This document shows, piece by piece, positions 56,686 through 57,395 of a stretch of DNA of 64,000 nucleotides. Numbering within the stretch: the stretch's first letter is position 1; every line of letters starts with the position of its first letter. Position numbers and translations under genes: made by a program. Where the stretch lies: assembly GCF_030013595.1 (NCBI RefSeq), contig NZ_CP122768.1. The stretch is one strand, 5' to 3'. The notes beneath the pieces are model-generated. The model made no database searches. It was not told the origin of the DNA and worked only from the letters and a program-made list of their open reading frames with translations. This stretch comes from Escherichia coli. GTDB lineage: Bacteria > Pseudomonadota > Gammaproteobacteria > Enterobacterales > Enterobacteriaceae.

Positions 56686-57395
56686 CAGAAAACCCCCAGC
56701 TAGGCTGGGGGTTCCGGAAAGCTTTCAGCTTTGAGCCAGTTATTAAAACCCCTTTTGATTTGTTAAAACACCTTGCGGTCTGGCAACTGCAAGTGTCAAA
56801 CAAGAAATCAAAAGGGGGTCCCAATGGGGGACGAAAAGAGCTTAGCGCACACCCGCTGGAACTGTAAATATCACATAGTTTTTGCGCCGAAATACCGAAG
56901 ACTGGCGTTTTACGGAGAGAAGCGTAGGGCGATAGGCAGTATTTTGAGAAAGCTGTGTGAGTGGAAAAGCGTACGGATTCTGGAAGCAGAGTGCTGCGCA
57001 GATCATATCCATATGCTTGTGGAAATCCCACCCAAAATGAGCGTATCCGGCTTTATGGGATATCTGAAAGGGAAAAGCAGTCTGATGCTTTACGAGCAGT
57101 TTGGGGATTTGAAATTCAAATACAGAAACAGGGAGTTCTGGTGCCGAGGGTACTATGTCGATACGGTGGGTAAGAACACGGCGAAGATACAGGACTACAT
57201 AAAGCACCAGCTTGAAGAGGATAAAATGGGGGAGCAGTTATCGATTCCATATCCGGGCAGCCCGTTTACGGGCCGTAAGTAACGAAGTTGAATGCAAATG
57301 TCAGATCGTATGCGCCTGTTAGGGCGCGGCTGGTAACAGAGCCTTACAGGCGCATTTGAAAAACCTCCGGCTATGCCGGAGGATATTTATTCCTG
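56686..57395 (+). mobile_element. IS200-like insertion sequence (IS200/IS605 family), about 0.7 kb, between deaD and mtr; boundaries approximate
   Basis: Contains a 152-aa HUH Y1 transposase, a hairpin at the tnpA-proximal end (AACCCCCAGC-TAG-GCTGGGGGTT, 56691-56713) and hairpins at the far end (57312-57352; CCTCCGGC-TAT-GCCGGAGG 57365-57383); no terminal inverted repeats, as expected for this family. Confidence 0.7.
56824..57282 (+). CDS. tnpA: IS200-type transposase TnpA (HUH / Y1 single-strand transposase)
   Basis: 152 aa from ATG 56824 (MGDEKSLAHTRWNCKYHIVFAPKYRR…); HUH motif HIHML and catalytic-Tyr region RGYYVDTVG; track ORF over-extended by 17 codons. Confidence 0.85.
   Translation: MGDEKSLAHTRWNCKYHIVFAPKYRRLAFYGEKRRAIGSILRKLCEWKSVRILEAECCADHIHMLVEIPPKMSVSGFMGYLKGKSSLMLYEQFGDLKFKYRNREFWCRGYYVDTVGKNTAKIQDYIKHQLEEDKMGEQLSIPYPGSPFTGRK

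What the first reader, a model, noticed from the sequence alone, without database searches (positions are those of the whole stretch)
56686..57395. IS200-family insertion in the deaD-mtr intergenic region
A complete HUH/Y1 transposase gene (tnpA 56824-57282, 152 aa) with flanking subterminal hairpins sits between the deaD terminator and the mtr operator. In the K-12 layout I recall, deaD and mtr are separated by a short intergenic region with no IS, so this is a strain-specific mobile element. Its far end lies only about 10-40 bp upstream of the putative TrpR/TyrR operator, so it could affect mtr expression. IS200 elements also encode a hairpin that sequesters the tnpA ribosome-binding site and a small antisense RNA.
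Basis: partly seen in the sequence, partly recalled or inferred. Interest (0 to 1): 0.55.

Follow-up and report, generated by a model that had tools for sequence, protein, structure and literature searches.

The report
IS200 insertion upstream of mtr
This is an ordinary, intact copy of the well-known small mobile element IS200, newly landed right after the deaD terminator of an E. coli strain, where it probably cuts the tryptophan-permease gene mtr off from one of its two regulators.

Summary
Window 56681-57391 (711 bp, + strand) is a complete IS200-group element. It has a 152-aa HUH/Y1 transposase gene (56824-57282), a left-end terminator hairpin, a stem-loop that sequesters the ribosome-binding site, and right-end hairpins.

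A near-isogenic E. coli genome (HCP5S3_I2) has the empty site GGGGCTTTTTT|CCTGTC. The insertion is therefore clean, with no target duplication.

The copy is 100% identical over its full length to copies at other loci in other E. coli strains. None of 5,426 complete E. coli genomes has this subtype at deaD-mtr. Sixteen carry a 96%-identical IS200C at the same position, so the site appears to have been hit twice.

This fits a strong target preference. Of 116 independent IS200-like left flanks, 89 abut a terminator-like hairpin plus T tail, against 1% of random sites.

The element sits 1 bp upstream of the inferred mtr -35, so the boxes move from 42 to 753 bp away while the TrpR operator stays in place. 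I predict loss of TyrR activation; this is untested.

The element itself is already known, and interest is low.

The parts
56681..57391 (+). Complete IS200-group insertion sequence, 711 bp, with no terminal inverted repeats and no target-site duplication
   Evidence: The isogenic empty site in L005 reads GGGGCTTTTTT|CCTGTC. The element is 100% identical over 711 bp to copies in L002 and L003. It occurs once in the window.
56651..56680 (+). deaD intrinsic terminator (9-bp stem, 7-nt loop, T6 tail). This is the insertion target; the IS follows the last T.
   Evidence: Terminator scan. DNA fold at -9.7 kcal/mol, z -5.05. The same sequence is present in the empty sites of K-12 and L005.
56691..56713 (+). 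Left-end perfect hairpin (10-bp stem, loop TAG). In Salmonella IS200 this is the bidirectional terminator at nt 12-34. It is presumably also the TnpA-bound subterminal hairpin.
   Evidence: Fold. Rfam alignment. Function taken from PMC4513863.
56749..56817 (+). tnpA 5'UTR stem-loop that pairs CCCCUUUUGAUUUG with the Shine-Dalgarno region AAAUCAAAAGGGG
   Evidence: RNA fold at -43.8 kcal/mol, z -4.45, with 0 of 200 shuffles as stable. Part of the Rfam STnc490 match. Role taken from PMC4513863.
56824..57282 (+). tnpA, a 152-aa HUH/Y1 single-strand DNA transposase (H61-I-H63; Y125 with Q129)
   Evidence: NCBIfam NF033573 at 144 bits. PHROG transposase families. Aligns with solved Y1 transposases 2ec2, 2f4f and 2a6m with HUH and Tyr in register. 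Residue positions.
56743..56832 (-). Expected position of the antisense RNA art200. [quoted passage not shown] A TTTACA -35-like hexamer lies at 56863-56868 on the - strand.
   Evidence: Placed by homology with Salmonella IS200 as described in PMC4513863. The hexamer is read from the sequence. Not shown to be expressed here.
57310..57391 (+). Right end: a long imperfect hairpin (57310-57355), a perfect 8-bp hairpin (57364-57382) and the tail ATATTTATT
   Evidence: DNA fold at -24.2 kcal/mol, z -5.28. Terminator-like on both strands. The tail ends in TTATT, which matches the target consensus TTnTT.
56604..56651 (+). mtr TyrR boxes: weak core CGTAATCATCGCTGAACA at 56604-56621 and strong box TGTAAAATAATATATACA at 56634-56651. 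Both are now separated from the mtr promoter by the IS.
   Evidence: Sequence matches to TGTAAA-N6-TTTACA. The layout and the 42-bp spacing agree with PMC4374768. Identical in K-12.
57393..57422 (+). Inferred mtr core promoter (-35 CTGTCT 57393-57398, -10 TACAGT 57417-57422) with the TrpR operator GTACTCATGTACTGGTAC (57402-57419) in the spacer
   Evidence: In the empty site, the distance from the strong-box centre to the -35 centre is exactly 42 bp, as PMC4374768 states. The operator is assigned from general knowledge of TrpR half-sites. The transcription start site is not verified.

Best explanation
An intact IS200 (IS200/IS605 family, IS200 group, tnpA only) transposed recently into the T tail of the deaD intrinsic terminator.

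The family moves as single-stranded DNA ('peel and paste'). The Y1 transposase recognises subterminal hairpins and joins the left end 3' of a short target. That is why there is no target duplication and why the element sits directly after ...GGGGCTTTTTT. For IS200-type elements the preferred target is TTnTT at the foot of a terminator-like hairpin. This makes the deaD terminator a recurrent landing site, used independently by this subtype and by IS200C.

The element keeps itself nearly silent through its left-end terminator hairpin, a 5'UTR stem that hides the ribosome-binding site, and, by homology, the antisense RNA art200.

The consequence for the host is inferred, not shown. The IS lies 1 bp upstream of the mtr -35 hexamer, so both TyrR boxes move from 42 bp to 753 bp upstream. 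That should abolish or strongly reduce the roughly 2-3-fold TyrR activation of mtr by phenylalanine and tyrosine. The TrpR operator, the core promoter and the deaD terminator remain intact.
For: Identity of the element:
- NCBIfam transpos_IS200 at 144 bits.
- Rfam STnc490 at 146 bits.
- HUH and Tyr aligned to solved Y1 transposases.
- Hairpins at both ends.
- RefSeq annotates identical or near-identical copies as IS200/IS605 family transposase.

Mobility and recency:
- A near-isogenic genome has the precise empty site, with 3000/3000 and 3498/3500 flanking bases identical.
- Copies 100% identical over 711 bp lie at purL-qseE and amtB-tesB in other strains.
- 2,063 of 5,426 genomes carry IS200-like copies, up to about 35 places per genome.

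Hot spot:
- 16 of 5,426 genomes carry IS200C (96.2% identical, 27 differences spread along the element) at the same position, on a different flank haplotype.

Target rule:
- In 116 independent left flanks, positions -1 and -2 are T in 103 and 114 cases.
- 89 of 116 abut a hairpin plus T tail, against 51 of 5,000 random 65-mers.
- Tandem IS1541 copies in Y. pestis sit right behind another copy's right-end hairpin and tail ATATTTATT.
- A preprint reports terminators enriched upstream of IS200/IS605 elements.

Strand:
- The window's + strand has GC skew +0.048. The element's tnpA-sense strand therefore lies on the lagging-strand template, as expected for this family.

mtr geometry:
- The strong TyrR box is 42 bp from the -35 in the empty site, matching PMC4374768.
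- That paper describes TyrR contacting the RNA polymerase alpha C-terminal domain from that box to enhance mtr expression.
Against: - Nothing here contradicts the identification of the element.
- Family excision is precise, so 'insertion here' cannot formally be told from 'excision in the relative'. Parsimony favours insertion, because more than 5,400 genomes have the empty site.
- IS200 is described as essentially dormant (PMC5435999), which sits uneasily with a very recent hop.
- The mtr -35, -10 and start site are inferred from spacing. I could not read the primary papers; PMC208063, PMC212541, PMC179526 and PMC178520 are not held.
- The regulatory consequence is untested and would be modest at best, since activation is only 1.7-2.8-fold.
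- 27 of 116 flanks lack a detectable hairpin, so the hairpin may be a correlate of T tracts rather than a recognised feature.
Confidence: 0.93

Rival explanations
1. The element is ancestral at this site in the lineage, and the empty site in the closest relative arose by precise TnpA-mediated excision. That would make it loss in the relative, not gain here.
For: IS200/IS605 excision reseals the donor precisely (PMC2806898). An empty site therefore carries no scar that would reveal direction. The relative HCP5S3_I2 holds about 13 places matching the query, so TnpA is available there.
Against: 5,410 of 5,426 complete genomes have no IS at this site, including all others close to this lineage at 99.3-99.5% identity over 12.7 kb. 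Gain in one strain needs fewer events.
Confidence: 0.04
2. The two IS200 subtypes at deaD-mtr reflect one old insertion whose sequence was later overwritten by recombination or gene conversion with other genomic copies. They would then not be two independent hits on a hot spot.
For: The position and orientation are the same in both. Genomes carry many copies that could act as conversion donors.
Against: The two occupied alleles sit on different flank haplotypes (T6C versus T7, plus other SNPs). The window's nearest relative is empty. The 27 differences are spread over the whole element rather than forming a patch. The terminator-tail target rule predicts recurrent hits.
Confidence: 0.05
3. The copy is retained because the host benefits from it, either as a source of regulatory RNAs (5'tnpA or art200) or as a useful mtr regulatory variant. 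It would then be more than a neutral or selfish insertion.
For: In Salmonella the tnpA 5'UTR is processed into an sRNA that regulates invF and other genes (PMC5435999, PMC12594629). The same 5'UTR structure is intact here.
Against: This is a single-strain insertion identical to its paralogues, so there is no sign of selection at this locus. No E. coli targets are known from the evidence gathered. The strain's lineage already holds about a dozen copies.
Confidence: 0.05

Closest known systems
IS200 of Salmonella enterica (IS200/IS605 family, IS200 group)
   Same: Same architecture. It is about 707-711 bp with a single tnpA for a Y1 HUH transposase. [quoted passage not shown] The Rfam STnc490 model matches end to end.
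   Different: This is an E. coli subtype. I could not retrieve a Salmonella copy for a direct identity figure. The insertion locus (deaD-mtr) is specific to this strain.
IS200C of E. coli (RefSeq name for WP_000526135.1 elements)
   Same: Same length, same ends and same orientation. In 16 complete genomes it occupies the same deaD-mtr position.
   Different: 96.2% identical, with 27 substitutions across 711 bp. The window's copy belongs to the subtype encoding WP_000502112.1-like TnpA, found at 99% identity or better in 227 records.
IS1541 of Yersinia pestis / Y. pseudotuberculosis
   Same: Same family and group. It has the same 23-nt left-end hairpin and the same right-end hairpin and tail. 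It also sits behind terminator-like hairpins.
   Different: About 87% identical. The leader is GTGCCCAGAA instead of GTGCACAGAA. It reaches far higher copy number and forms tandem dimers.
IS608 (Helicobacter pylori) and ISDra2 (Deinococcus), the mechanistic paradigms
   Same: Homologous TnpA, with solved structures 2a6m and 2xm3 matched at E 3e-19 and 5e-16. Both insert 3' of a short target without duplication and excise precisely.
   Different: Those elements also carry tnpB and use TTAC or TTGAT as targets. Here there is no tnpB, and the target is a T-rich TTnTT at a terminator foot.

Membership tests
IS200/IS605 family, IS200 group | Encodes a Y1 HUH (Y1_Tnp) transposase | tested here: met
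   NCBIfam NF033573 at 144.4 bits against a cut-off of 55. PHROG transposase families at E 1e-47. PDB Y1 transposases at E 2e-23 to 3e-13.
IS200/IS605 family, IS200 group | Catalytic HUH motif and single catalytic tyrosine are intact | tested here: met
   H61-I-H63 aligns with DHIH of 2ec2 and 2f4f. Y125 (YIKHQ) aligns with the conserved YIxxQ.
IS200/IS605 family, IS200 group | No terminal inverted repeats; subterminal hairpins at both ends | tested here: met
   Left-end hairpin at 56691-56713. Right-end hairpins at 57310-57355 and 57364-57382. The two ends are unrelated in sequence.
IS200/IS605 family, IS200 group | Inserts 3' of a short specific target without target-site duplication | tested here: met
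   The isogenic empty site is restored exactly when the 711 bp are removed. The left-flank consensus is TTnTT in 116 independent insertions.
IS200/IS605 family, IS200 group | About 700 bp with tnpA only (no tnpB) | tested here: met
   711 bp. The only ORF with family hits is tnpA.
IS200/IS605 family, IS200 group | Multiple near-identical copies at unrelated loci | tested here: met
   100% identical copies at purL-qseE and amtB-tesB. 10,268 places in 2,641 genomes.
IS200/IS605 family, IS200 group | Strand-specific single-strand transposition activity of TnpA | not testable with these tools
   There is only indirect support. The element's tnpA-sense strand lies on the lagging-strand template according to GC skew.
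IS200 5'UTR / STnc490 (Rfam RF01405) | Match to the covariance model above the gathering score | tested here: met
   146.4 bits against 56, covering the full model 1-124, on the + (tnpA-sense) strand.
art200 antisense RNA of IS200 | Transcribed antisense to the tnpA 5'UTR from a promoter inside the first codons of tnpA | not testable with these tools
   The region is conserved, and a TTTACA -35-like hexamer is present at 56863-56868 on the - strand. Expression needs RNA data.
TyrR-activated, TrpR-repressed mtr promoter (E. coli K-12 type) | Strong TyrR box about 42 bp upstream of the -35, with a weak box distal to it | tested here: not met
   Both boxes are present (56604-56621 and 56634-56651). 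However, the IS moves the strong box to 753 bp from the -35. The 42-bp geometry holds only in the empty site.

The most novel reading that the evidence does not exclude
IS200-type transposases may recognise the single-stranded form of an intrinsic terminator, meaning the hairpin foot plus the TTnTT tail, as a structured target that mimics the element's own right end. Under this reading, terminators in front of promoters, such as deaD-mtr, are recurrent and predictable sites where natural strains lose upstream activator input. Here that would be TyrR control of tryptophan uptake.
Probability: 0.35. Interest if true: 0.4.

Novelty: already known. Interest (0 to 1): 0.15.

Why it matters
It matters little as a discovery, because IS200 is a textbook element and this copy is identical to copies in other strains. 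Three modest points remain:

1. A presence/absence difference between near-identical strains is direct evidence that this 'dormant' IS still moves in wild E. coli.
2. The deaD terminator has been hit at the same position by two subtypes. This illustrates how strongly IS200-type elements favour terminator tails.
3. The insertion is a natural allele that should uncouple mtr from TyrR while leaving TrpR control in place. It offers a ready-made test of how far the TyrR boxes can be moved from the mtr promoter before activation is lost.

Tried and rejected
- **Primary mtr promoter papers.** I tried PMC208063, PMC212541, PMC179526 and PMC178520 to confirm the -35, -10 and start site. None is held. 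I relied on the summary in PMC4374768.
- **Other papers for the mtr start site.** PMC11878033 and a promoter-variation preprint had nothing on the mtr start site or on IS insertions.
- **Promoter scan.** The sigma-70 scan found no promoter-like site in the right end of the IS or at mtr. I therefore dropped the idea of an IS-borne outward or hybrid promoter. The mtr promoter is simply too weak to meet the scan's threshold.
- **Other copies in the window.** There are none.
- **Window from a divergent Escherichia species.** I considered this because the short flanks reached only 98.5% identity in the rows listed (rows spread across the ranking, not the best matches). I rejected it because a 12.7-kb stretch is 100% identical to an E. 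coli genome.
- **T run as part of the element.** Rejected, because the T6 is present in the empty site.
- **Guide/target covariation.** I looked by eye for covariation between the 4 nt 5' of the left-end hairpin (AGAA or CGAA) and the target across subfamilies. I saw none, so I make no claim.
- **Naming the subtype.** ISfinder is not available here, so the subtype could not be named.

Full report
**What is there**

Between the deaD stop codon (56606-56608) and the mtr start codon (57473) the window has 864 bp. E. coli K-12 MG1655 has 153 bp in the same interval. The extra 711 bp (56681-57391) form one compact element with these parts:
- a 10-nt leader, GTGCACAGAA;
- a perfect 10-bp hairpin at 56691-56713;
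- a long stem-loop at 56749-56817 that pairs the Shine-Dalgarno region with upstream sequence (RNA fold -43.8 kcal/mol, z -4.45);
- a 152-aa ORF at 56824-57282;
- two hairpins at 57310-57355 and 57364-57382;
- the tail ATATTTATT.

The element occurs once in the window.

**Identity**

The ORF product scores 144 bits on NCBIfam NF033573 (transpos_IS200, cut-off 55) and hits PHROG transposase families. It aligns over its whole catalytic core with solved Y1 transposases, including 2ec2, 2f4f, IS608 TnpA (2a6m) and ISDra2 TnpA (2xm3). The HUH motif (H61-I-H63) and the catalytic tyrosine (Y125, YIKHQ) are in register.

Rfam RF01405 (STnc490) matches 56691-56814 end to end at 146 bits. RefSeq annotates the near-identical copies in E. 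coli as IS200/IS605 family transposase genes. All testable defining features of the IS200 group are met.

**Exact ends and mode of insertion**

A 12.7-kb stretch left of the element is 100% identical to E. coli HCP5S3_I2. That genome has deaD and mtr 153 bp apart. Its sequence reads ...ATCGGGGCTTTTTT|CCTGTCTTTTG... and equals the window's flanks joined together. The flanks match at 3000/3000 bases on the left and 3498/3500 on the right.

So nothing was duplicated or lost. This is the signature of the IS200/IS605 family, which inserts 3' of a short target and excises precisely (PMC2806898). Because the flank ends in T and the IS ends in TT, the boundaries can slide by up to 2 nt.

**How common, and how recent**

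IS200-like copies covering at least 80% of the element occur in 2,063 of 5,426 complete E. coli genomes. In 227 records the best copy is at least 99% identical. Copies at purL-qseE (strain GMF065) and amtB-tesB (strain Z0117EC0005) are 100% identical over all 711 bp.

At deaD-mtr, only 16 of 5,426 genomes are occupied. Those carry IS200C, which is 96.2% identical with 27 substitutions spread along the element. It lies in the same orientation and at the same position, but on a different flank haplotype.

No complete genome has the window's subtype at this site. The simplest reading is a recent gain in this strain and an independent, older gain of IS200C in another lineage. Because excision is scarless, loss in the relative cannot be formally excluded, but it needs more events. 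The literature calls IS200 essentially dormant (PMC5435999). This polymorphism shows it still moves in nature, which is not a new idea.

**Why this site**

All three E. coli copies I examined lie directly behind a hairpin followed by six or more T. I scanned one genome per species for the 23-nt left-end hairpin. This returned 120 stretches from Yersinia, Vibrio, Brenneria, Dickeya, Edwardsiella, Pluralibacter and several metagenome-assembled genomes.

In 116 independent left flanks:
- position -2 is T in 114, -1 is T in 103, and -5 is T in 111, while -3 is free, giving a consensus TTnTT;
- 89 (77%) have a terminator-like hairpin plus T tail abutting the element, against 51 of 5,000 (1%) random 65-mers from the same loci;
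- the tail between stem foot and element is mostly 3-6 nt.

In Y. pestis, tandem copies sit right behind another copy's right-end hairpin and its tail ATATTTATT. The element's own right end therefore looks like its target, as expected in this family.

A recent preprint reports the same enrichment of terminators upstream of IS200/IS605 elements, so this is not new. It does explain the double hit on the deaD terminator. Whether the hairpin is itself recognised or merely accompanies T tracts is open.

The window's + strand has positive GC skew (+0.048). This places the element's tnpA-sense strand on the lagging-strand template, in line with single-strand integration at the fork. That link is my inference from established family biology.

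**Self-regulation**

This part rests on homology and was not tested here. In Salmonella IS200 the nt 12-34 hairpin is a bidirectional terminator that blocks incoming transcription. The nt 69-138 stem hides the ribosome-binding site. [quoted passage not shown] The 5'UTR is also processed into a trans-acting sRNA (PMC5435999).

The corresponding sequences are intact here. By position, art200 would run from about 56832 to 56743 on the - strand, with a TTTACA hexamer at 56863-56868. The Rfam model matches the tnpA-sense strand, although the papers describe STnc490 as antisense.

**Consequence for mtr**

The TyrR boxes are not next to the far end of the IS. The strong box TGTAAAATAATATATACA is at 56634-56651 and the weak-box core is at 56604-56621. 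Both lie on the deaD side and overlap the end of deaD and its terminator.

PMC4374768 states that mtr has a promoter-proximal strong box and a distal weak box upstream of the -35. It places the strong box centred 42 bp upstream of the -35. It reports activation of 1.7-2.8-fold through contact with the RNA polymerase alpha C-terminal domain.

In the empty site, 42 bp from the strong-box centre falls exactly on the centre of CTGTCT (57393-57398). With an 18-bp spacer this pairs with TACAGT (57417-57422). The TrpR operator GTACTCATGTACTGGTAC (57402-57419) lies in that spacer.

The IS therefore sits 1 bp upstream of the inferred -35 and moves the strong box to 753 bp away. I predict, with a probability of about 0.6-0.7, that TyrR activation by phenylalanine and tyrosine is lost. 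I expect TrpR repression, the core promoter and the deaD terminator (still hairpin plus T6) to be unaffected. tnpA is co-oriented with mtr, but the right-end hairpin is terminator-like, and no promoter-like site faces out of the element. The promoter assignment rests on spacing, because the primary papers were not available.

**Verdict**

This is a known element inserted in a typical way at a typical target. The insertion at this locus is rare and probably has a small regulatory effect. Interest is low.

Noticed in passing
window 57408 and 57392: Two flank SNPs relative to K-12. The TrpR operator reads GTACTCATG instead of GTACTCGTG. The base after the terminator T run is C instead of T (T6C versus T7), directly upstream of the inferred -35. 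Both are shared with the empty-site relative L005, so they predate the IS.
   Followed up: partly
L071, L072, L074, L118 (Yersinia pestis NCTC5923): Head-to-tail tandem IS1541 copies. The left end of one copy starts immediately after the right-end hairpin and tail ATATTTATT of another. The element's right end therefore serves as a target.
   Followed up: partly
L006-L009, L011, L013-L034, L050-L066: The exact 23-nt IS200 left-end hairpin occurs in assemblies labelled Oxalobacter, Bacillota, Mailhella/Desulfovibrio, Peptococcaceae, Elusimicrobiaceae and Saccharibacteria. It is mostly at contig ends and has lineage-specific 10-nt leaders. This could reflect wide horizontal spread or mis-binned contigs. 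I did not resolve which.
   Followed up: no
window 56691-56814 (+): Rfam RF01405 'STnc490' matches the tnpA-sense strand and includes the left-end terminator hairpin. PMC4513863 describes STnc490/art200 as antisense to the 5'UTR. The model seems to represent the sense 5'UTR rather than art200.
   Followed up: partly
window 56616-56644 (+): This is the only sigma-70-like match in the region (TGAACA-17-AATAAT, 9 of 12). It lies inside the TyrR box region upstream of the deaD terminator. The number found is what shuffles give, so it is probably chance.
   Followed up: no
NZ_CP023960.1 and 15 other complete genomes (L001): The 16 genomes with IS200C at deaD-mtr give identical or near-identical match statistics (96.1-96.3%) and carry 19-30 places matching the query each. 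They look like one clonal lineage. I did not check their sequence type.
   Followed up: no
window 55073-56350 (-) and 51387-53609 (-): Long antisense ORFs (425 and 740 aa) lie opposite deaD and pnp. They have low-complexity translations and are taken as mechanical ORFs, not genes.
   Followed up: no
window 12039-12146, 33647-33768, 44455-44555, 49254-49324, 50837-50951, 51181-51352: Ordinary E. coli RNA elements are in their expected places: ArcZ, greA leader, rimP leader, naRNA4, S15 leader and SraG. There are also tRNA-Leu(GAG) at 40421-40507 and tRNA-Met at 44290-44366. Nothing unusual.
   Followed up: no
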